From Candidatus Cloacimonadota bacterium (lineage in GTDB: Bacteria; Cloacimonadota; Cloacimonadia; Cloacimonadales; Cloacimonadaceae), in NCBI GenBank assembly GCA_021206555.1, contig JAJOKA010000227.1, forward strand, positions 1 to 57,127: a DNA stretch of 57,127 bases. Reading direction: 5' to 3'. Below the pieces are notes generated by a model. The model made no database searches. It saw nothing but the letters and a program-made list of their open reading frames with translations, and was not told the DNA's origin. The position numbers and the translations under genes are program-made. Positions 47,116 through 57,127 of this stretch are shown here, piece by piece. Within the stretch, counting starts at the first letter, position 1, and the number at the start of each line of letters is the position of its first letter.

Positions 47116-50100
47116 CTATATCCGAATGTTCACATACTGGCCGCTGAAGCTATAGCCACTGAAGGCAGGGAGCTTCTTTAGGGCAGCAATATACTTATCT
47201 ATCTGATCTTCTTCATGGATGCCACCGGTCTTGTAATCAATGACCAGGGCTTCTTTGGCTTGGGTATTCACCATCAGACGGTCGATCCGCAGTCGGTTGA
47301 CGGGCAATTCCGTGTAGACTTTGTCATAGACCGGCGCGAAGAGGAAGCTGTGTTTGCGCAGCTCTTGCTTAACGCTCTCAAAGACATCCCTGAGCACTCT
47401 TTCTGAGAGCAGCGAGCCGTAATGGCTGAGGCACTGCAAGGCCGCGTAGCTGTGTTCGTCATCGGTGTCCCGACGGATGAAGCTGAGATAGTAATGCGCG
47501 AGCTCGCCATACAGATGCTGGCGCTTGTCCAGATAGACCGCTTTCCAATCGCGCACGGCGTTGTCTTTCAAGGTCTTAGTAGCATCCCAATTGAGCCCTG
47601 CGCGCGGGGCAGGCTGCCAATCTCCAAGCTCAGCTTCAGCTTCTCTTTGGCTGGTTTGGGGCTTTTTTCTTTGGTTTCTGGATAGCAAGTCTTGAAGCAC
47701 AGAATCCCTCTCTGATCCGGGATTACTCCATCAAAGAACTCTTTGCAGGTATTGGCCAGAATCACGGGTAATCTCAGACTATCTTCATCTTTGTCAGCAT
47801 AGTATTCATCCCAGGTTTTCTGACCCCGATAGGAGAAATATACATGCAGCGCGGTTTTCGCTCTGGTAAAGGCGACATACAGCGCGTTGAGCTCTTCCAA
47901 AAGGCTTTGCCGGCGTTTCTGTTCCCATAAATCTTTGGCGCTGGAATGCCTTAGTACGTCTTCATAGTGATAGCTGAGCGCGTAGGCATCGATATCCTGA
48001 AATCCGGGGATGCTTTGCCCTGTGCTATCACCCTTGCCCACATCGGTGTAACGATAGCTGGAATACAGCTTCTTTTCGTTGTTTCTGCCACTATCGGAGA
48101 GATCGTAAAATACGAAGACGCGGTCAAACTGCAAGCCTTTGGATTTGTGGATGGTGAGTAGCTGCAAGTGATCCTCACCCTCCACGGATACCATCTGGAA
48201 GCTTTCCTGCTTGCTGTTGTCTTCGATGAAAATCCAAGAGACTCTGCCGCTTTCGCGCTGAGATGCCTGATTGATCTCCCAATCCCGTACCAGCGACAAA
48301 AAATGCTTGAAGATTCAATTGATCGCGTTTGCTCTTGGATATCTCATCAGTCAGAAGTATGCTCATCAGCTCACGCAGGCTTTGATAGGGAGTTTGATCC
48401 GTATGCCTTATTGCCAGATCATACCACTGCTTAAGAAAATCCGCAGTGCCAAAATCCGGGATGTAGCTATCAGCCATATCTTCCGGCACGCTGATGATAA
48501 GAGAGATGGCATCCACAGCCTGTTTGAGGGCAGTGCTGCTGAGCAGCAAATAGTCACTGCGCAAGAAACAGAGCAGGCTATACCAATCCCGATAGACTAC
48601 AAACTTCATCCAGGAAATCAAGGGTGAGACCAGATGATGCTCCACAATCGAGGCCGAAGGCTGGAATACACCGGTGATCCCCTTTTCTTCCAGCATGATC
48701 TGGAGATCGCTCAATTGCCTGCCCTTGCGGCAAAGAATGGCCACTTTCTGATCTTCGTCCTCTCTCAGGGCAGGCAGCACCATTTTATCGATAAAGTCTT
48801 CATACACAGCGTCTTTGTCATCCAATTCGCCTCGGCTGGAGTAGGGGCTGAATTTGAGCTCGATGATGCTGGAATGATCACCAATGGCGGAACGCACCTG
48901 AGGGTAATCCCACTGCATGTTATTGTCCCGCAGATAGCTGTGGATGGAAGGATTCAGGAAAATGGCATTGATGAACTTCATCATATCCGTGGATGAGCGC
49001 CAGGAATCGGCCAGGACATCGCTTTTGGCATTGGCCAGGCTGCCGATGATGTGTTTCAGATTGAGCAGGAGATCCCGCTCTCCCCCACGCCAGCCAAAGA
49101 TGGATTGCTTCTCATCTCCCACCACGATCACCCCACCCAGATCCTTGGAGCCATAGCCGGCACAGATCTCTTCGATGATTGGACGCAGGATGTTAAACTG
49201 GATCAGCGAGGTATCCTGAAACTCGTCGATCAACATGAAGCGGGTGCGATGGCTGAGAAAATGGTAAAACTCCGTAGCGGTGTTTTCCACCGAGGAGATC
49301 AAAGGCCGGAGGCTCCTGAGAGAACAGGCTTCGAAGGTAAACCAGCTGATATCGTCATAGGTCATGTTTTTGTAGCGATAGATCAGACGGTCGTATTCCT
49401 CCAATATGATGCCCCAGAGCTCCAGAATCTCTTGTTGTTCCGGCAAAAAAAGAGTGAAGTAAAGGTGATCGGCCAGGGCTCGGGTTACCAAATCCTGAGT
49501 TTGATTCAGCTGCGCTTTGAGCTCTGCTTTACGGATCCGTGTGCCACTGTAGATGTTCTTTTTGGCCAATACCTTCAGCATTGCGTGAGCTTGTTGAGGA
49601 TCGGAGAGCAGTTTATCGATATGATCCAGAGCTTCCTGCGGAGTAGCAAATTCACTTTGCAAAGCATTACGAAAATCAGAATTGAAATAGTCCATGAACT
49701 CCGCTCCGGCTTTGATCAGTCCGAAGACTTCGTTGAGCAAAGTCTCAATGCTGTCCCAGAAGATGCGCAGCTCCGCTCCCGAAGTTACATCATAGACGTT
49801 TTGCGGCAGCGATAACGGATCACATAGTAGAGCCAGCGAGAATTGATCAGATTGCTAAAGAAGCCGGCGTAATCATCCAAACTACGTTCCACCTTGCGTT
49901 GCAGCAGTTTATCGATGCGCACGCGAATCTGGGGCTGCATCAGGTGTTTGAGCAGAAAGGGCATGCGCTTTTCGATTGCTCCCAGATCGATGTCATAGCG
50001 ATCAATGCTTCTCAAAGGGCGCACGATATTGCGGAAGATGCTGCTGATGTAGCTGTCGATAGTCATCACCTGCAGCTTCCGTTTATCACAAAGGATTTCC

Positions 50101-50408
50101 TGTTTAGCCGAGATCAGCGCGCCTTCTTCTTTGACTTCAAGCCTGGCATGATCCCTGCCCAAAACCCGGCACAGATCAGCTAAGAGGCCTTCATCTTTAT
50201 GCTCGATCAAGCTGTCCAGATGTTCCAATATGCGATCGCGAATCTCGTAACTGGCCTTGCGGGTGAAGGTGAGCGCGAGGACTCCATCCAAAGAAAAAGA
50301 CTCGTATTCATAGTAACGCACGATCAGGGCAATGTATTCCAAAGAAAGACGATAGGTCTTCCCCGTGCCGGCACTGGCTGAGATGATCAGATTTTCAAAG
50401 CGTTTCAT
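47116..50408 (-). CDS. addA: UvrD/AddA-like helicase with a C-terminal PD-(D/E)XK nuclease (~1097 aa, at least 3 frameshifts)
   Basis: ORFs 49785..50450, 48175..49740, 47568..48299 and 47116..47700. Start MKRFENLIISASAGTGKTY (Walker A). FMLIDEFQDTS (motif II). VGDEKQSIFGWRGG. Late helicase motifs TIHKSKGLQFD and YVAFTRAK. Nuclease motif LVIDYKTG. Confidence 0.7.
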
Positions 50409-53171
50409 TGTGCACCCCCGGGAGATAGAGATCACTGCGACTGATATCACGCATTACAGAGCGATCCGTGCTCTTGGCGGCAAGCCGGTAACCATATTCA
50501 AAACAAGCAGTGAGAGCCTCCGAGATATTCTCCAGGTATTTTTTCCGTTTCTCGTCTTTTATCTTGATACTGTCATCAACCCGCATTTGCAGGATCAACC
50601 ATATCACCGACTTTAGTTGGGACTCAGTGGTGGGATCATCCAGAAGATAGTAGAGCCATTCATAGAAGATCAATTGCTCTGCCTTGGCCCGACCTGTCTT
50701 GAAGTCCACGATGTATTTGCTGTCGGCACTTTCGACGCGCAGATCGGCCTTACCGGTAATCCTGATGCGATACTCACTGCCGTCAATGTTCTGTTGGACA
50801 AGGATTTTGCCTTGTTTCTCAGCATCGGTCATGCGTTCATTTTCCGGGATCAAAGTGAAGGATGCGTCGCTCCAGTTTCGGCGCAGGAACCTCACATAAA
50901 ACTCCTTCAGAGAAAGGGGCCAGACAATCGCAGATGATGCTGTTCATATAGTCCGCGTTATAGTTCTTTGGCATTTTGTACCTGAATTGGGGGTGATTGA
51001 TTAGTTCCAAAAGAGCGGTTTTGAGCTTTTCCGGATCGGCAAAGACAAGGTCCAGCGATGCGGCATTATGGTGTTTACTGGCCTGATCTCCCAATACTTC
51101 AGCAAAATAGGCATGCAGCAAAGTGCCGAACAGCGTGGGCGAGATCACTTCCTTCCGAAGGATCCGGCGAGGAGATATCTTACGCAAACTGCTGATATAC
51201 CACACAAAGGGATTGTAGGCAAAGAGGCTGAGGTCATAGCTGCCGCACTTGATGCTGTGGTACTGCCAAAGTCCATGCCCGGATCGCAAGGCAGACGGAA
51301 GAATGCCGCGTCAATCGGGCTGTGATAACACTCAGAATCCACGCTCAGACCTGGCAGATCGGACTTTTGGGCTTGCCAGTTTTGCAGCACGCCCAGTTCA
51401 TCCACACGCAGAGCCTGAGGTTCCAGCCCGGTGAAGCTTTGCAACTCTCCGATGAAGCTGCTGTGATCTATCGCTTTTTCAGCATCAAGATAGCTAAAGA
51501 GCAACACTTCTTTCGCGCAAAACACTAAACGGAAGAAATAGTATCGTTCCCACTCCCGGATATCGTCGTAGGTCTTGAGTCCCAACACCTTGCGTTGATG
51601 CTCATTGAGCAGCCAGATCGGGTTTGGCGCAGTGGGCAACACTCCTTCTACCAGATTAAAAGTCACTACCCGCTGAAACACTCGATTGCGGGCATCCAGA
51701 AGGTTGCTGACCTCCCATTGAGGTTTACTCTCGAGATCTATGTCCCGCTTGAGCCGGATGCTTTTCAGGTAGTCCAGCCACAGCTCAAAGACTCCCAAAC
51801 AGGGATCTCAAAGAGCTCAGACCAGCTGGAGATCAAGCCCAAATCCTGAATGGCAGAAAAGTTCGCCATTGCCGACCAGACCTTGGGCAATAGGTCAGTG
51901 TTATCTCGCTCCATAGCAGTGGAATAGCGCTCCACAGCCAGGCTTGTGCTTAGCAGTTCTGCCAAATCCCCAATCCCGGTGATCCGCATAATGTCTTGCA
52001 GCACAGCGTTCAGGGACACGGCAAAGTGGAATAGTCGGCTTTCTTCATTATCAAATTGTCGCGCTGGATCGGTATCCAGATAGAGCAGTTCCTGGTTCTG
52101 CTGTTCATAGAGCTCTCGTTCAAAAGCCACGAAATCCTGCTCTGTCCACTCTGGACACAGAGGAATGAGCATTTGCGGATGCGCGAAGTACTTGATGATG
52201 ATCCTCAGCGGGATGTAGCCGGGACTATCCTGCAGGCTTTGCAAGATTTCCAGAAAGACGCGTTGGAAGCGATACCAATGAGTTTCACAGATGGGCAACT
52301 GCTCATTGACGAGCAGTTTGTTTGGATCAAAATACGCCGAATACGCCTTTTTGCCAAACTGGCTATCCAGGATCGCGCATTCGCCCACATCCATCGCGAT
52401 AAAGCTAAGTGCCTGTTGCTGTTCACTCTCGCAATCAAAGAGCCGGATCCGGGCTTTGCTCTTCAGGCCTTCCCAATTTGCGGCAGGATCAAAAAGCCCA
52501 GTTTCCCAATGCTCTTGATCTGCAGCCACCCCTTGATAGATGAGCAAGACTTCGTTTCCAGCCGCTTCGCATTGCCTGAGTAAGGCCTTTTCCAACTTAC
52601 TGTAATAAAACTGATTGACGCAGATGATCCGATATCCATTGAAAGGGATTTGGGCTGCATCCGAGCCCTCGTGAAAGATGCGATCAGAAAAACCGTGACT
52701 AGAGATAAAACTCCGGTAACGCAAGAGTATATCGCTGATGCGCCGGATGTTATCTTCCTGCCAAAGCCGGAGATTCAGATTCCTTTGCGCTGCCTGCTCC
52801 TGAAACTCCAAGACCGGGATCCCGGCATCGCAGAGTTCACTGCAAAACTGAAAGAGCTGCGTTCCCCACAACACAAGATCGGCATAGCCATTGAGATGAA
52901 AGTGTTCCTTGTCCTCTTCGCTCAGCACCTGATACAGACAGATCAAGCGTTTATCGTCCTCCAGAACAGGGGACGGCATACACAGCAAGAGATCCCGGAA
53001 ATCCTGCATACTGATCCAGAGCAGATCCTGCAAGGCCCAGTGTTCTTGATACTCCAGCCGTGCCGCGTCTGCTGAAGCGCGAGTGGGATAGATCATCACG
53101 CTTTTGTCGCTAATGGCCGAGAAGGCCGCTTGCGAAAGGCTTTCGGAAAAACTGATATTGACATGTTCCAT
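50395..53171 (-). CDS. addB: AddB-like PD-(D/E)XK nuclease partner (~925 aa, at least 3 frameshifts)
   Basis: ORFs 51765..53351 (true start MEHVNISF at 53171), 51145..51798, 50837..51289 and 50395..50895. C-terminal nuclease motif YIVDFKTGRAK. It overlaps the downstream helicase start by 14 nt. The addB-addA order matches Bacillus. Confidence 0.55.
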
Positions 53172-53181
53172 AGTTGCTCCT

Positions 53182-54750
53182 CTAAAGCAGAGGCGAAAAG
53201 AGCCTGCAAATGGACTCTTTACTGCGCTCCAAGATACTACGTTTTTGGAACTCTTCAAGCTCCAGCTTCTTGCTGAAAGCAAGGTCGGTATAGAAGGCTT
53301 CATCGGCTTCCCGGGCCAGAGAGTCTTCATAGACCAAAGCCGTGAGCTCAAAATTGTGGTTAAAACTCCTCAGATCCATGTTTGCCGTGCCCAAACCCAA
53401 CACTTCATCATCCACGATCAGGATCTTGGCATGGATAAAGCCCCGGGTATATTCATAGATCTCAACGCCCACTTCCATCAGCTCCTGATAGTATGACCTG
53501 CTACCCCAATACACCATCCAATGATCAGCCTTGCCCGGAACGATGATCTGCACCTTTACGCCACTGATGGCCGCGGTCTTGAGCGCCATCAACAGCGCTT
53601 CATTGAGGATCAGATATGGAGTGATAATGCGGATATAGCGATGCGCGTTGGCAATGGCCGAAAAATAAAGCTGCAAGATGCTGGAATGATCTGTATCCGG
53701 ACCGCTGGCCACCACTTGCACCGGGCTTTGCCTTTGCACATGCTTGATTGCCGCCGAATTCAGATAGCGGGATAGCGCCTCGGTGGCAAAGAGATTCTCA
53801 CCCTTCACGAAGTACCAGTCTCCCATAAAGATAGCCTGCATGGAAAGCACTGCTTCGCCCTCGAAGGATGCCACGGAATCCCGCCAATAACCAAAGTAAG
53901 GATCCTTACTCAGATATTTATCCCCGATGTTGAGCCCACCCAAAAAGGCCAGTTTACCATCCACTATCACCAGTTTCCGATGATTCCGATAGTTCATCCG
54001 GCTATTGATCAGAGGGATCCAAACCGGCATAAAGGGAACGAACTGCACTCCCGCGCGTCTGATCTCAGATTTGAAGCGGCGCGAGAGCTTCCAGCAGGCC
54101 ACATCATCATAGATAAAGCGAATCTCCACCCCTGCATGGGCTTTTTGGATCAAGAGATCCTTCAGATAGCGTCCGGTGCTGTCATCGGCGATCGAAAAAT
54201 ACTCCAGATGCACGTGATGCTTTGCTTCCCGGATGGCATCACAAATGGCGGCAAAGGCGATTCCGGTATCATTAAAAAGCTCTATCTCATTGTGCCCGGT
54301 GAGGATGGCCTTGCTGTTGTTCTTCAGGAGTCTGTGCAGTTTGTGTTCCAGCTGATGATTGAGCAGAGCGCTATTAAAACCCGGGATCAACAGCTTGATC
54401 TTCTCCATCAGTTCATTGTCAAAGAGTTCTTTGCGATTGAAGAGCTTGATCTTACGCCAGTTTCGGCCAAAGAAGAGATAGAAGATAAAGCCCACCACCG
54501 GGATGAAGATCAGCACCATGATCCAGGCCAGAGTATGCACCGGAGAGGAGTTTTCCAGCACCAGCACCACGATGATCAGAAAGATCGTAAGCGCGAAGAT
54601 CACATAGATGATGTTTGAGGTCACACGGTTGAAGGTTTGCAACACATCTCCACCCCAAATCAGCTGGATCAGAGATGCCACCAATGCCAGGCTGAGCAGC
54701 AAGGCCAGCACCATCAACACGGCATCCAAAAGCTTATGCGAAGGCATCAC
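53182..54750 (-). CDS. cls: Cardiolipin synthase (PLD family)
   Basis: 522 aa, intact. Two N-terminal TM helices with IPVVGFIFYLFFGRNWRK. Two HKD motifs: NHRKLVIVDG..GGLNIGD and IHAKILIVDDEV..GTANMD. Confidence 0.88.
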   Translation of the reverse strand: MMPSHKLLDAVLMVLALLLSLALVASLIQLIWGGDVLQTFNRVTSNIIYVIFALTIFLIIVVLVLENSSPVHTLAWIMVLIFIPVVGFIFYLFFGRNWRKIKLFNRKELFDNELMEKIKLLIPGFNSALLNHQLEHKLHRLLKNNSKAILTGHNEIELFNDTGIAFAAICDAIREAKHHVHLEYFSIADDSTGRYLKDLLIQKAHAGVEIRFIYDDVACWKLSRRFKSEIRRAGVQFVPFMPVWIPLINSRMNYRNHRKLVIVDGKLAFLGGLNIGDKYLSKDPYFGYWRDSVASFEGEAVLSMQAIFMGDWYFVKGENLFATEALSRYLNSAAIKHVQRQSPVQVVASGPDTDHSSILQLYFSAIANAHRYIRIITPYLILNEALLMALKTAAISGVKVQIIVPGKADHWMVYWGSRSYYQELMEVGVEIYEYTRGFIHAKILIVDDEVLGLGTANMDLRSFNHNFELTALVYEDSLAREADEAFYTDLAFSKKLELEEFQKRSILERSKESICRLFSPLL

Positions 54751-54828: not shown

Positions 54829-56792
54829 TTATACGCCCTTTGCTTTCCTGAGTTTGAGCACAAACTCAGTACCCTGATTCTCTTCACTGGTGACCTGCAA
54901 TTCCACTCCCAAAAGCTTCAGATAGCCCAAGCTGAGCCTGATGCCCATCCCAATCCCCAGCTCCTGATCGGTTCCGGCTTTTGCCTGGAGGCCTTGCTTC
55001 AGCAGCTTGGCCAGCTCTTCTTTGCTCATTCCCACTCCGCTATCGCGAATCCGGAGCTCCAGATACCGGTCTTTGTCCCGACAGGAGATACTGATGCTTC
55101 CCCCTCCGGGTGTGAACTTGATGGCATTGCTGAGGATATTGCGCAGCACAATCTTCATGATATTCGGTTCGGTATAAGTAGTCAGGTTATCCGCAGCCAG
55201 GATCAGATCCAGCTTGATCCGCTTTTGCTCCAGATGGCTCTGATACATCCGGATAATGGGGTCAAACAGGCCTTTCACGCTCACATCCTGCATCAAGCGA
55301 TCCACATCTTTTGCTGAAACTGCGGGATTCTATCCACACCATCATCTCGGTGAGCAGATCGGTGACACTATCCAGACTGGTGATGATATGGGTCAAAAGC
55401 TCATCCGCGCTTTCACCGCTGATGCTGCCATCCTGGATCATCTTCAAGGCTGCCGCGCTATTGGCCGCAGGACCACGCACGTCGTGAGAAATGATCGAGA
55501 TCAAGCGGTTCAGCATCCCCATTGAAGTATGCAAATCGTGATTGCTCTCTTCCAATTGCTGAGCCTGGTCGTTTGATCAATTGGTTGGAAGATTCCAGTT
55601 CGGCGTTTTTTTTTCTGATAGGTCTGATTCTGCAGTTCGATCTTGCGCCTCAGATACTCCGCTTCCTGCTTTGAGATCAGCTTCTCGGAGAGCTCCGTGT
55701 ATTGCTGCTCTTGCAGATCATTCAATACCTGCAAGCTGGCATTGGCACCCTTCAGATCCCCTGTATTTTCATAATACTTAGTCCAGAGTTTATGCAGATT
55801 GATGCGATGCTGGATAATCTCCATGTCCTTCGCTGCGTCATCCGCCATCTGCAGATATTTGTGGCTTTGTTCATACTGCTCTTGTTCGATGTGCATGGTA
55901 GCCAGATTCAATAGGACATTGATCAGCCCAACTCTGTCTTCCTCAGCATTCATCAAGCTCAAAGCCTGAGTGAGGCAGCTCTCGGCTTCATCCCAACGCC
56001 GCAACTTGTTGCAAATGGAGCCCATAGTGCTCAAGGTATCGGCTGTATGCTCATCACCGTAGTATTTGCGGCTGATCTCCAGGGATCTTACGATGTAGTC
56101 ATAAGCCTCATCAAATCGGTTCAGATCGGACATCGTGAGCGCCATATTACCCAAGGCGTAGCTAAGATAGGGCAGAATGTTCTCTCTAGTGGCGATCTCG
56201 ATGGCCTCTTCATAGGCCTTTAGCGCTTTTTCGTGACTCTTTAAGGGGCGATAGGAATTGCCCAGATTGATCAAGGCGGATATCCTTACTTCAGGCTCGG
56301 TGGAGTTATCATCCACGTATTGCAGCAGCTCGAAACACAAATCCACAGCCCGGCAAATTGCATTGTAAAACCATAGGCTACCACCAGGTTATTGACGATG
56401 GGCATCCACATCGTGTGAGTGCTGTCCATTTGCGCCAACATATCTTCCCAGGTGTAAATCGCCCGCAGATGATCACCCCGCATCGAATGAATGATGGCCA
56501 TCGTGGATTGCACGTGGAACACCTCATCCGGCAGATCGTGCGACTCCGCGATCGCGAGAGCCTTTTGCAAGACAAGCTCTGCTGCTTTCGGATCCCGGCC
56601 GTTGATATGAAAACGAGCCAGGCCGATGTATAAACTGATCAGACTCTCCGGATACTCGCTATAATCGTGATCATTCGCGAAATTCTCCAGCTCTTCCACG
56701 ATCTGTAAAGCCCGGGTTCTTTCTACCCGAATTATCTCATCCAATTGCTCTCTGACCCGATCCAGGGCCTCAGAACTTAACGGTTTTTTCAT
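54829..56792 (-). CDS. TPR-repeat sensor histidine kinase (at least 3 frameshifts)
   Basis: ORFs 56286..56792 and 55510..56346 (TPR-like helices and a coiled coil), 55262..55555 (H-box ISIISHDVRGP), and 54829..55305 (HATPase NILSNAIKFT, DSGVGM, GIGMG). Confidence 0.7.
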
Positions 56793-56810: not shown

Positions 56811-56839
56811 ATTACATATTTCCCCGATGTTTTAGTCAA
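56811..56839 (-). promoter_or_regulatory. Sigma-70-type promoter of the TPR-kinase gene
   Basis: Minus strand TTGACT (56839..56834), 17 nt spacer, TGTAAT (56816..56811). It lies about 20 nt upstream of the ATG at 56792, which implies a short leader. Confidence 0.45.
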
Positions 56840-56852
56840 TATATTTGTTTGT

Positions 56853-56929
56853 GAGGTTGCAGCTTGGTGCTTGGTGCTTGGTGCTTGGTGCTGGGTGCTG
56901 GGTGCTGGGTGCTGGGTGCTTGGTGCTGG
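56853..56929. repeat. Tandem heptamer array (GTGCTTG / GTGCTGG), about 11 units
   Basis: Degenerate units GAGGTTG and CAGCTTG, then 3x GTGCTTG, 4x GTGCTGG, GTGCTTG, GTGCTGG. The unit and orientation are the same as in the array at 2413..2517. Confidence 0.95.
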
Positions 56930-56941
56930 GGACTAACACCT

Positions 56942-57030
56942 TCAAATTGTAAATCGTATTGTAAATCGTAAATCGTAAATCGTAAATTGTAAATCGTAAA
57001 TCGTAAATTGTAAATTGTAAATTGTAAATC
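56942..57030. repeat. Tandem heptamer array (GTAAATC / GTAAATT), about 12 units
   Basis: Contiguous 7-nt units with one truncated unit (GTATT at 56956..56960). It starts 12 nt after the previous array. Confidence 0.95.
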
Positions 57031-57048
57031 GTCTCTCCCTTGTGGCAG

Positions 57049-57127
57049 TTAATCAAGCGATCATCCCCCCTTAATCAAGCGTTAACTATTAACGCTTGAT
57101 TAACGCTTGATTAAGACTTGATTAACG
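57049..57127. repeat. 11-nt repeat family TTAATCAAGCG, including a 15-3-15 palindrome and a period-11 tandem array that runs off the window
   Basis: TTAATCAAGCG at 57049 and 57071. Palindrome TTAATCAAGCGTTAA-cta-TTAACGCTTGATTAA (57071..57103). Then CGCTTGATTAA (57104) and GACTTGATTAA (57115), truncated at the window end. Confidence 0.85.

What the first reader, a model, noticed from the sequence alone, without database searches (positions are those of the whole stretch)
56853..57127. Three different tandem arrays packed back-to-back just upstream of a promoter
Within 275 nt there are three arrays:
- About 11 units of GTGCTKG, the same family as at 2413.
- About 12 units of GTAAATY.
- An 11-nt family TTAATCAAGCG, present as a perfect 15-3-15 palindrome plus a period-11 tandem run that continues past the window edge.

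The first array ends only 14 bp upstream of the -35 (TTGACT, 56839..56834) of the TPR histidine-kinase gene. Period 11 is about one helical turn, as seen in iterons and operators. The palindrome looks like a dimeric transcription-factor operator. This density of unrelated microsatellites in one intergenic region is highly unusual for a bacterial chromosome.
Basis: partly seen in the sequence, partly recalled or inferred. Interest (0 to 1): 0.65.

Follow-up and report, generated by a model that had tools for sequence, protein, structure and literature searches.

The report
Repeat mosaic upstream of a kinase gene
The three arrays are real, but they are genome-wide repeats of an uncultured wastewater bacterium (Cloacimonadota): two length-variable 7-base microsatellites and one copy of a many-copy palindromic element, not a control site made for this gene.

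Summary
All three arrays are real and far beyond chance. Two independent short-read assemblies span them in the same order, so this is not an assembly artefact. The organism is an uncultured Cloacimonadota bacterium from sludge and digesters.

The 275 nt are the kinase-proximal third of a 918-bp divergent intergenic region. Past the window edge lie a 15-mer duplication, a third heptamer array and a gene for a T9SS-secreted protein of more than 1,500 aa.

- **Heptamer arrays:** they belong to a lineage-wide set: 7 arrays in about 66 kb, and none in more distant Cloacimonadota. They sit after stop codons, between operon genes and upstream of promoters. Unit number differs between samples (9.4 vs 8.4, 15.4/16.4/10.4, 10.1/7.7). 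A sister species has a different heptamer at the same spot.
- **11-mer run:** it stops at the window edge. It is one arm of a 79-111-nt palindrome that is a dispersed repeat. Its depth is 150-350 times that of the flanks, and other copies have many different flanks. The identical 33-nt core occurs in Ca. Cloacimonas acidaminovorans, next to Mu-like prophage ends.
- **Promoter:** the sigma-70-like promoter call is plausible and conserved.
- **Iteron or operator reading:** not supported.

Both repeat types are known kinds (heptanucleotide SSR assemblages; REPIN/MITE-like palindromes), seen here in a new lineage.

The parts
54829..56792 (-). TPR sensor histidine kinase gene. It is split into four ORFs in the window by four single-base assembly indels, and is intact (653 aa) once these are corrected.
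   Evidence: ORFs. All four short-read runs lack the extra bases at 55309 and 55569 and carry the missing G after 56351; three of four also lack the extra base at 55606. The corrected ORF is 653 aa and 99% identical to P0001, with TPR and HATPase_c domains.
56811..56839 (-). Sigma-70-like promoter of the kinase gene: -35 TTGACT (56839..56834), 17-nt spacer, -10 TGTAAT (56816..56811). The allele in other strains is TAGAAT.
   Evidence: Sequence. TTGACT-17-TAGAAT scores 10 of 12 in L003. Both -10 alleles occur in run X2. The -35 box and the GGGGTGRAA ribosome-binding site are conserved in the species with 64% kinase identity and the one with 88%.
56853..56929 (.). Heptamer array 1, GTGCTKG: 9 perfect units plus 2 degenerate ones, arranged in blocks of the TTG and TGG variants.
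   Evidence: TRF and unit parse. There is one unit fewer in L003 and L013, as an exact 7-nt indel. The same unit forms the array at 2413-2520.
56893..56916 (+). (GGGTGCT)x3 followed by GGG. This is the only canonical G-quadruplex motif (G3-N4-G3-N4-G3-N4-G3) in the window.
   Evidence: Regex scan of the whole window on both strands. The motif is kept in L003 and L013. Whether a quadruplex forms was not tested.
56944..57032 (.). Heptamer array 2, GTAAATY, 13 copies by TRF. Read towards the kinase gene it gives periodic TTTACA-17-TACAAT promoter-like matches.
   Evidence: TRF. It is 8 nt shorter in L003 and L013. Promoter-like hits. The same unit family recurs in a third array beyond the window (L003 4964-5044).
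57030..57127 (.). One copy of a dispersed palindromic element built from 11-nt TTAATCAAGCG units. The core is 38-3-38 at 57048-57126, with a perfect 15-3-15 centre at 57071-57103. The outer imperfect arms begin at 57030 and end about 14 nt past the window.
   Evidence: It folds as single-stranded DNA at -24 kcal/mol, z = -8.2. Depth is 150-350 times the flanks, with many different flanks, in 8 DNA runs. The exact centre is found in three Cloacimonadota contigs, including Ca. C. acidaminovorans.
2413..2520 (.). A second GTGCTTG array (15.4 units). It starts at the stop codon of a gene for a T9SS-tailed protein.
   Evidence: Other samples have 16.4, 16.4 and 10.4 units with different internal variants.
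7852..7922 (.). CAGGTKG array (10.1 units), 5 nt after the stop codon of an RNB ribonuclease gene and between convergent genes.
   Evidence: Run L019 has 7.7 units. The species with 79% protein identity has CAGGTAG x3.6 at the same place.

Best explanation
The 275 nt are the kinase-proximal part of a 918-bp divergent intergenic region, which lies between a TPR histidine kinase gene and a gene for a giant T9SS-secreted protein. The region is a mosaic of two kinds of genome-wide repeat in an uncultured Cloacimonadota bacterium.

1. **Arrays 1 and 2, plus a third array just past the window, are heptanucleotide microsatellites.** This lineage makes them in many intergenic regions. I infer that they grow and shrink by replication slippage in whole-unit steps; what is shown is that unit number differs between samples. 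Their unit sequence is not what matters: a sister species has a different unit at the same position.

2. **The '11-mer array' is one copy of a dispersed hairpin-forming palindrome of about 80-110 nt, made of TTAATCAAGCG units.** It resembles a REPIN or MITE. I infer dozens of copies in this genome. Its 33-nt core is identical in Ca. Cloacimonas acidaminovorans.

Neither kind of repeat is an operator or iteron set made for this gene. The conserved sigma-70-like promoter lies just downstream of the mosaic. Any effect on expression is therefore most likely a by-product and is inferred, not shown. Seven-bp steps would change the distance and helical phase (240 degrees per unit) between upstream DNA and the promoter. 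Array 2 supplies extra promoter-like hexamers, and array 1 supplies a G-quadruplex motif.
For: **The arrays are real and spanned**
-.

**The heptamer arrays are a lineage-wide trait**
- There are 7 non-redundant period-7 arrays in about 66 kb of this species, 3 in 8.5 kb of the sister species, and 0 in 167 kb (redundant) of other Cloacimonadota.
- Shuffled windows give no period-7 arrays.
- Positions are not promoter-specific. One array starts at a stop codon, one lies between convergent genes, and two back-to-back arrays fill a 197-nt gap from a stop codon to 2 nt before the next ATG.

**Unit number varies between independent assemblies**
- Array 1: 9.4 vs 8.4 units. Array 2: 13 vs 11.6 units.
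- The array at 2413: 15.4, 16.4, 16.4 and 10.4 units. The array at 7852: 10.1 vs 7.7 units.

**Unit sequence is not conserved or special**
- The species with 88% kinase identity has GTTATGG x5.4 at the same place in one sample and no heptamers in another.
- The window's units are no commoner in viral contigs than composition-matched shuffled heptamers: 6 and 12 loci against 5 and 7.

**The palindrome is a dispersed family**
- Word depth reaches 1138, 5695, 8036 and 2336 at the palindrome in runs X1, X2, X3 and X5. The flanking single-copy depth in the same runs is 7, 32, 43 and 15.
- Between 50 and 99 contigs per run match it, with many different flanks.
- Contigs with long flanks have the same depth as this genome's single-copy baseline in several runs.
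- The exact 33-nt centre occurs in Ca. C. acidaminovorans and beside Mu-like phage ends.

**Published precedent**
- Assemblages of heptamer repeats in Bacteroidetes intergenic regions are described. They are absent from close relatives and break assemblies (PMC4679880).
- Heptamer SSRs are reported as over-represented in bacteria (PMC4692102).
Against: - No expression or binding data exist, so a regulatory role is not excluded.
- Array 1 starts only 14-22 nt upstream of a conserved -35 box, where upstream elements and activators act.
- Heptamer arrays appear at this same position in two related species, which could mean selection for an array there.
- The palindrome's arms carry no substitutions between the two strains, while its loop and flanks do. 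The numbers are too small to be significant.
- No second copy of the palindrome occurs in the roughly 85 kb of this species that I hold. The per-genome copy number therefore rests on contig depths in metagenomes, where related species contribute. A dominant organism in runs X9 and X20 carries at least three copies.
- The window is an error-prone long-read assembly, so its own unit counts could be slightly off. The polymorphism between short-read assemblies does not depend on it.
Confidence: 0.7

Rival explanations
1. The region is a contingency (phase or graded-variation) locus. Slippage in the heptamer arrays tunes expression of the kinase gene, the divergent T9SS gene or both, as the 7-bp ATCTTTC repeats do upstream of hmw1A/hmw2A in Haemophilus influenzae. 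It could work by re-phasing upstream sites or by changing which promoter-like hexamers of array 2 are used.
For: - Unit number does differ between samples in whole units.
- The arrays abut a conserved promoter.
- Array 2 yields periodic TTTACA-17-TACAAT matches that point at the kinase gene.
- The divergent T9SS gene carries a G9/G10 tract that varies between samples, a classic slippage switch.
- The hmw precedent is in PMC12721329.
Against: - Arrays 1 and 2 lie upstream of the -35 box. They are not between promoter and start codon and not between the hexamers, so no known SSR switch geometry is met for the annotated promoter.
- The same kind of array sits at 3' ends and between convergent genes.
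- Only between-sample variation is shown, not within-population variation.
Confidence: 0.15
2. The 11-mer palindrome is a protein-binding site used at many places in the genome: a site for a global regulator, a nucleoid protein or a recombinase, or a preferred landing site for transposable phages. On this view it is not a selfish mobile repeat. At this locus it would act as an operator between the two divergent genes.
For: - It has a perfect 15-3-15 centre and 11-nt (one helical turn) spacing of TTGATTAA-containing units.
- The centre is identical in genomes of 35-50% G+C.
- Three independent Mu-like phage ends lie 28, 47 and about 110 nt from copies of it, with empty sites known for one locus.
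Against: - Conservation extends over 80-110 nt with copy-specific compensating arms. One copy (L061) is a perfect 11+33+11 palindrome. This is typical of propagated hairpin elements rather than independently evolved binding sites.
- The element is absent upstream of the orthologous kinase gene in related species.
- No binding protein is identified.
- The same phage end has a different flank in run X2.
Confidence: 0.1
3. The 11-mer repeats are iterons of a plasmid, phage or chromosomal replication origin.
For: - The period is 11 nt.
- The same centre turns up in three contigs labelled viral.
- One of these (L061) has 22-25-nt direct repeats 150 nt away.
Against: - The run is 3.6 units long and inverted, not a long direct array.
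- Flanking genes are a kinase, cardiolipin synthase, AddAB and a T9SS cargo gene, with no replication gene.
- Cumulative GC skew shows no turn.
- In the viral contigs the element lies in host DNA just outside Mu-like phage ends. This is shown by empty sites and by an alternative flank.
- The 22-mers in L061 look like transposase end-binding sites.
Confidence: 0.02
4. The arrays are an assembly or contig-end artefact.
For: - The window is an error-prone assembly, with four single-base indels in one gene.
- Logan k=31 contigs break at the arrays.
Against: An ENA megahit k141 contig (L003) and a JGI 78-kb contig (L013) both span all the arrays in the same order and agree with each other base for base.
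Confidence: 0.01

Closest known systems
Intergenic heptamer direct-repeat assemblages in Bacteroidetes, and TAACTGA repeats in Beggiatoaceae and cyanobacteria (MacGregor 2015, PMC4679880)
   Same: - Several different heptamer arrays are packed into one long intergenic region.
- Close relatives have shorter regions without the arrays.
- Assemblies break in the arrays.
- The host belongs to the FCB-group neighbourhood.
   Different: - The units differ (GTGCTKG, GTAAATY, CAGGTKG and others, not TAACTGA).
- The host phylum is Cloacimonadota.
- Here unit-number polymorphism between samples is shown directly.
- Here the arrays sit next to copies of a dispersed palindrome.
Long simple sequence repeats with 5-11-nt units, STRR repeats of heterocystous cyanobacteria, and G-rich heptamers of Xanthomonas and Nostoc (Rehm 2015, PMC4692102; Mrazek 2007, cited there and recalled from my own knowledge)
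   Same: - Heptamer period, intergenic location and many loci per genome.
- Length varies between relatives.
- One block, (GGGTGCT)n, is a canonical G-quadruplex motif like GGGAATC and GGGGAYT.
   Different: - Most units here are not G-rich.
- Several unrelated units coexist, rather than one dominant motif.
The 7-bp ATCTTTC repeats upstream of hmw1A/hmw2A in Haemophilus influenzae (PMC12721329)
   Same: - A heptanucleotide SSR lies upstream of a gene.
- Unit number is variable.
- A large surface or secreted protein gene is nearby.
   Different: - The hmw repeats lie in the transcribed 5' UTR and act through an RNA hairpin and RNase III.
- Here the arrays lie upstream of the -35 box of the kinase gene and about 0.4-0.7 kb upstream of the T9SS gene.
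- No link to expression is shown here.
REP, BIME and REPIN elements (Bertels and Rainey 2011, PMC3116915; Di Nocera 2013, PMC3733652)
   Same: - Short units in inverted orientation form a 70-110-nt hairpin.
- The element is extragenic and high in copy number.
- It forms mosaics with other repeats.
- It is a site next to which transposable elements land.
   Different: - The arms are built of 11-nt tandem units.
- No clear GTAG or CGTC tag is present.
- No RAYT gene is known for it.
- The core is identical across genomes with very different G+C content, which is unusual for REPs.
Plasmid and phage iterons, and the 11-bp parC repeats of plasmid R1 (from my own knowledge)
   Same: The period is about one helical turn.
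   Different: - There are only 3.6 units.
- The arrangement is inverted.
- No replication or partition gene is adjacent.
- The element is a multi-copy chromosomal repeat.

Membership tests
Intergenic heptanucleotide SSR arrays (long SSRs / STRR-like / heptamer assemblages) | Head-to-tail repeats of a 7-nt unit, many copies, high identity | tested here: met
   TRF gives 9.4 and 13.0 copies at 96% and 86% match. No period-7 array appears in 30 shuffles.
Intergenic heptanucleotide SSR arrays (long SSRs / STRR-like / heptamer assemblages) | Located outside coding sequence, at many loci of the genome, with several unit types | tested here: met
   There are 7 arrays in four intergenic regions within about 66 kb, with five unit families. 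No credible ORF lies in the region.
Intergenic heptanucleotide SSR arrays (long SSRs / STRR-like / heptamer assemblages) | Unit number varies between strains; arrays are missing or different in relatives | tested here: met
   Whole-unit differences are seen at four arrays. A different unit is present in the species with 88% kinase identity, and no arrays in the species with 60-64% identity or in C. acidaminovorans.
SSR contingency locus (hmw type) | The repeat lies between the promoter and the start codon, or between the promoter hexamers, so that unit number changes expression | tested here: not met
   Arrays 1 and 2 lie upstream of the -35 box of the conserved promoter. Promoter-like hits inside array 2 are consensus matches only.
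SSR contingency locus (hmw type) | Unit number varies within a population and correlates with expression | not testable with these tools
Only between-sample differences were seen.
Iterons of a replication origin | Several direct repeats next to a replication initiator gene or origin features | tested here: not met
   The run is 3.6 units in an inverted arrangement and ends at the window edge. The neighbours are kinase, cls, AddAB and T9SS genes. The skew profile is flat.
Locus-specific palindromic operator | A site private to the regulated promoter(s) and kept at orthologous promoters | tested here: not met
   The element is high-copy with many flanks. It is absent upstream of the orthologous kinase gene in the species with 88%, 64% and 60% identity.
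REP / REPIN | Two short repeats in inverted orientation that can form a long hairpin | tested here: met
   The arms are 38-3-38 (extended 54-3-54) with a perfect 15-3-15 centre. Folding energy is -24 kcal/mol, z = -8.2.
REP / REPIN | Tens to hundreds of extragenic copies per genome | tested here: inconclusive
   Depth is 150-350 times the flanks, and contigs with long flanks sit at this genome's baseline depth. Only one copy lies in the roughly 85 kb held, related species also carry the element, and positions of the other copies were not seen.
REP / REPIN | A cognate RAYT (Y1 transposase) gene in the genome, and a conserved GTAG or CGTC tag | not testable with these tools
No clear tag is seen at the element's ends by eye.
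MITE | Terminal inverted repeats with target-site duplication, and a related autonomous IS | tested here: inconclusive
   The whole element is a palindrome, but no flanking direct duplication is evident. The parent IS is unknown.
G-quadruplex-forming heptamer repeats | Four or more G3 tracts with loops of 1-7 nt | tested here: met
   The motif lies at 56893-56916 and is the only such motif in the window. Folding was not tested, and the other arrays lack G3 tracts.

The most novel reading that the evidence does not exclude
The TTAATCAAGCG palindrome could be an undescribed hairpin element found across Cloacimonadota, with three properties:
- It propagates within genomes.
- It attracts Mu-like transposable phages. 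Three independent phage ends lie within about 110 nt of copies.
- It nucleates heptamer microsatellites beside it. Several other copies are also followed by GATTTAC- or GGACAAT-type arrays.

The resulting mosaics would then act as evolvable spacers that re-phase and re-tune divergent promoters of sensor and surface-protein genes.
Probability: 0.15. Interest if true: 0.6.

Novelty: new member of a known kind. Interest (0 to 1): 0.4.

Why it matters
**For annotation.** Tandem arrays next to a promoter should not be read as operators or iterons before checking whether they are genome-wide repeats. In this case they are.

**For Cloacimonadota biology.** These bacteria are abundant in digesters and remain uncultured.
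- One sub-lineage has an unusually high load of length-variable heptanucleotide microsatellites.
- The phylum carries a conserved dispersed palindrome that I found described in no paper.
- Both features break short-read assemblies, and both give ready strain markers.
- The lineage contrast offers a natural test of why heptamers in particular expand in bacteria: arrays are present here and absent in relatives with 60-64% protein identity.

**For phage biology.** The clustering of Mu-like prophage ends next to the palindrome hints at a target preference.

Tried and rejected
- **Cyanobacterial origin.** HIP1 (GCGATCGC) is not enriched: 4 sites against 1.3 expected. Rejected.
- **Genome-contig scan with the kinase fragment.** It returned only two distant hits, so no close genome was found.
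- **Exact-protein look-ups of three window ORFs.** None was on record.
- **Rfam search of the whole intergenic region.** It gave only an insignificant miRNA hit.
- **Coding potential.** The 74-aa ORF across the arrays (56832-57056) is a repeat artefact.
- **Inverton.** No distant inverted repeats flank a promoter.
- **Integron attC, dif site and CRISPR repeat.**
  - The core boxes of attC are not at the element's ends.
  - The element is multi-copy and has a 1-3-nt loop, unlike dif.
  - Copies are diversified and have related, not random, flanks. The unitigs are 43-60 nt long, which does not fit a CRISPR repeat.
- **Sigma-54 promoter in TGGCAG...GC.** The spacing is off by one. Rejected by eye.
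- **Are these heptamers special?** Composition-matched shuffled heptamers are equally common in viral contigs.
- **Palindrome as part of the Mu-like phage.** Rejected by empty sites and by an alternative flank.
- **GenBank phage search with the phage end plus palindrome.** No match.
- **RNA evidence.** It is weak. A few low-depth contigs cover the 5' end of the T9SS gene. Copies of the palindrome appear in RNA-seq contigs, but DNA carry-over cannot be excluded.
- **Association of arrays with T9SS cargo genes.** At least five such genes lie in the window and only two adjoin arrays, so the association is not convincing.
Full report
**1.

Tandem Repeats Finder reports three arrays:
- 56862-56927, period 7, 9.4 copies.
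- 56944-57032, period 7, 13.0 copies.
- 57088-57127, period 11, 3.6 copies.

Parsed from 56853, array 1 has nine perfect GTGCTKG units and two degenerate ones. Array 2 has eleven perfect GTAAATY units and one truncated unit. The 15-3-15 palindrome at 57071-57103 is perfect and lies inside a 38-3-38 imperfect palindrome. The GTGCTTG unit is the same as at 2413-2520. Thirty dinucleotide-preserving shuffles of the window gave no period-7 array.

**2. Source organism and assembly quality**

Homologues of the kinase and of a nearby RNB ribonuclease are named Candidatus Cloacimonetes, Cloacimonadota or Cloacimonadaceae. The sequence recurs in wastewater, sludge, digester and sediment metagenomes.

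In the window the kinase gene is split into four ORFs.
- All four short-read runs lack the extra bases at 55309 and 55569 and carry an additional G after 56351. Three of the four also lack the extra base at 55606.
- With these four corrections the gene is an intact 653-aa TPR histidine kinase, 99% identical to P0001.

The window therefore comes from an indel-prone, probably long-read, assembly. That explains why it spans arrays at which k=31 contigs break.

**3. The region is not an artefact, and it extends further**

An ENA k141 contig (L003) and a JGI 78-kb contig (L013) span the whole intergenic region and agree with each other. The region is 918 bp long. It lies between the kinase gene and a divergent gene for a protein of more than 1,516 aa with a T9SS C-terminal sorting domain.

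Its order, reading away from the kinase gene, is:
- promoter
- array 1
- array 2
- the 11-mer palindrome
- a 15-mer x2
- a third heptamer array, CGTACAT/CGTAAAT x11.6, with a 35-nt higher-order period
- about 400 nt of other sequence

The 11-mer run ends exactly at the window edge.

**4. The heptamer arrays are a lineage-wide, length-variable class**

- **Density.** Across the window and its extensions there are seven period-7 arrays in about 66 kb. They lie in four intergenic regions and fall into five unit families.
- **Placement.** One array starts at a stop codon. One lies between convergent genes. Two back-to-back arrays (GAGAGAC x14 and CAATTCT x10.7) fill the 197-nt gap between two co-directional glycosyltransferase genes, from the stop codon to 2 nt before the ATG.
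- **Polymorphism.**
  - Array 1 has 9.4 units in the window and 8.4 in L003 and L013, an exact 7-nt indel.
  - Array 2 has 13 units against 11.6.
  - The array at 2413 has 15.4, 16.4, 16.4 and 10.4 units, with different internal variants.
  - The array at 7852 has 10.1 units against 7.7.
  - The short-read variants have no periodic run long enough to be collapsed at k=31, so I take them as real. This last step is inference.
- **Relatives.**
  - The species with 88% kinase identity keeps the promoter. In one sample it then has GTTATGG x5.4 and CTAGTYC x4.3. In another sample the sequence diverges about 30 nt upstream of the -35 box and has no heptamers.
  - The species with 79% RNB identity has CAGGTAG x3.6 where the window has CAGGTKG x10.
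  - Species with 60-64% identity, and Ca. Cloacimonas acidaminovorans, have no heptamer arrays. The former also have a different upstream neighbour.
- **Unit identity.** The window's units are no commoner in IMG/VR contigs than composition-matched shuffled heptamers.

Together this points to slippage-driven microsatellites whose unit sequence is incidental. It does not fit conserved binding sites. The same picture is described for Bacteroidetes by MacGregor (PMC4679880): several heptamer arrays in one intergenic region, absent in close relatives, with assemblies ending in them. Over-representation of heptamers among bacterial SSRs is noted in PMC4692102.

**5. The 11-mer palindrome is a dispersed repeat**

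- **Depth.** When contigs of eight DNA runs are laid on L003 5046-5272, depth over the palindrome rises to 150-350 times the single-copy flanks. Examples are X1 at 1138 vs 7, X2 at 5695 vs 32, X3 at 8036 vs 43, X5 at 2336 vs 15 and X9 at 1680 vs 4.8.
- **Flanks.** Between 50 and 99 contigs per run match at 90-99% and have many different flanks.
- **Same genome.** Contigs with long unique flanks have depths equal to this genome's baseline in each run: about 7, 40, 17, 4 and 11. I infer dozens of copies in the same genome. The palindromic arms double-count k-mers and related species contribute, so the exact number is uncertain.
- **Nearby sequence.** No second copy lies in the roughly 85 kb of this species that I hold.
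- **Association with heptamers.** Several other copies are again followed by heptamer arrays. Loose ends include GGACAATCTACGATTTACAATTTAC....
- **Other genomes.**
  - The exact centre TTAATCAAGCGTTAA-NNN-TTAACGCTTGATTAA occurs in three IMG/VR contigs.
  - One of them is Ca. Cloacimonas acidaminovorans Evry.
  - There the copy lies in a 1.3-kb repeat-rich region between convergent genes, with arms again built of 11-nt TTGATTAA-like units.
  - One copy (L061) is a perfect 11+33+11 palindrome with arms not shared by other copies.
- **Structure and databases.** The element folds strongly as a single strand (-24 kcal/mol, z = -8.2). It has no T-run, no Rfam match, and no mention in any paper I could find.

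Its closest known kind is the REPIN, BIME or MITE class (PMC3116915, PMC3733652). Membership in REPINs cannot be claimed, because no RAYT gene or sequence tag could be checked.

**6. Relation to Mu-like phages (a side result)**

- L062 is a Mu-like transposable phage. It has a MuA-like transposase, a MuB-like ATPase, a CI-like repressor and a terminase.
- In Ca. C. acidaminovorans a close relative of this phage is inserted 47 nt to one side of the palindrome. Empty sites in two other assemblies define the junction.
- In L062 the phage end is joined 28 nt to the other side of the same chromosomal copy.
- In L061 the right end of another Mu-like phage lies about 110 nt from another copy.
- In run X2 the same phage end has an unrelated flank. 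The palindrome is therefore host DNA, not phage DNA.

This suggests, but does not prove, a target preference.

**7. The promoter**

On the minus strand, TTGACT-17-TGTAAT precedes a GGGGTGAAAC ribosome-binding site and the ATG.
- Other strains have TAGAAT at the -10 position, scoring 10 of 12. Both alleles coexist in run X2.
- The -35 box and the ribosome-binding site are conserved in the species with 88% and 64% kinase identity.
- Array 1 starts 14-22 nt upstream of the -35 box.
- Array 2, read towards the kinase gene, yields periodic TTTACA-17-TACAAT/TACGAT matches. These are consensus matches only.
- Array 1 contains the only canonical G-quadruplex motif of the window, at 56893-56916.

**8. 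Mechanism**

Shown:
- The arrays exist.
- They vary in whole units between samples.
- They are a trait of this lineage.
- The palindrome is a multi-copy element found across genomes.
- The promoter is conserved.

Inferred:
- The arrays arise and change by replication slippage.
- The palindrome spreads as a hairpin element.
- Any regulatory effect is secondary. Possible routes are 7-bp steps that rotate upstream DNA by about 240 degrees relative to the promoter, extra promoter-like hexamers, or quadruplex or cruciform formation.

I give the 'generic repeat mosaic' reading 0.7, a true contingency-locus role 0.15, a multi-site protein-binding role for the palindrome 0.1, iterons or an origin 0.02, and an artefact 0.01.

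**9. Novelty and interest**

Both components belong to known kinds of repeat. New here:
- the host lineage;
- the direct evidence for unit-number polymorphism;
- the palindrome family itself;
- its apparent association with heptamer arrays and with Mu-like phage insertion.

Interest is moderate.

Noticed in passing
window 54829-56792 and 49785-53351: The kinase gene is split by four single-base indels. Short-read runs do not have them: all four runs for three of the sites, and three of four runs for 55606. The AddB-like (PDDEXK) gene is likewise split into five ORFs in the window but is an intact 925-aa gene in L003. The window's assembly therefore carries homopolymer-type indel errors, and apparent pseudogenes in it should not be trusted.
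   Followed up: partly
window 2395-2520; L016 6398-6530, L017 3507-3597, L018 242-374: The GTGCTTG array begins at the stop codon of a gene for a T9SS-tailed protein. Strains differ by one base there, so the stop is TAA in some and TAG in others; the TAG overlaps the first repeat unit. Unit number is 10.4 to 16.4.
   Followed up: yes
L016 2725-2919 (about 1.3 kb left of the window start): Two back-to-back heptamer arrays (GAGAGAC x14, CAATTCT x10.7) fill the whole gap between two co-directional glycosyltransferase genes. They run from the stop codon to 2 nt before the ATG, leaving no Shine-Dalgarno sequence.
   Followed up: partly
L003 4457-4465 (about 0.7 kb beyond the window's right edge): A G9 tract lies near the 5' end of the giant T9SS gene. 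One run (X1) has G10. This may be a slipped-strand on/off switch for this surface protein.
   Followed up: partly
L003 4534-4960 and 5054-5093: The 'unique' part of the intergenic region also holds multi-copy or variant segments.
- The assembly graph branches at 4534, 4667 and 4895, and depth is 2-6 times higher at 4696-4737 and 5054-5093.
- In runs X3 and X5 a different gene body follows position 4534.
- A motif AATTTACACCAACNTTTGRGAC seen in the loose ends also occurs three times in the Ca. C. acidaminovorans intergenic region (L065, about 3806, 4297 and 4737).
   Followed up: partly
L064 13100-13400; L065 4060-4160; L062 9360-9489; L061 14650-14916: Mu-like transposable phages of Cloacimonadota sit 28, 47 and about 110 nt from copies of the palindrome. 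Two of these insertions are at the same chromosomal copy but on opposite sides, and empty sites are known. This may be a target preference.
   Followed up: partly
L003 4666-4687 and 4819-4899: A good intrinsic-terminator-like hairpin (CTTATCCTGCCTGCGGGATAAG followed by a T-run) points towards the T9SS gene, about 120 nt upstream of its start. A 20-26-aa ORF with a ribosome-binding site lies before it. This may be a leader or attenuator, or a small RNA.
   Followed up: no
L024 1-600 versus L025 1-260: Two samples of the sister species have the same kinase protein and promoter, but unrelated sequence from about 30 nt upstream of the -35 box. This places a rearrangement breakpoint right at the promoter's upstream edge. 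The gene upstream of the kinase also differs among more distant species (FecCD/periplasmic binding protein genes, or restriction-modification genes in L011).
   Followed up: partly
L003 5106-5135: A 15-mer, AAGCTCATAAGTAAT, is duplicated exactly. Run X3 has an 8-nt insertion (ATAAGCTC) there, so this small repeat is polymorphic too.
   Followed up: no
L023 2778-2809: In the species with 79% RNB identity, the short heptamer array after the RNB gene is followed directly by an 11-mer x2.9 (AGTCTCCTGAC). This is another case of a heptamer array next to an 11-mer repeat.
   Followed up: no
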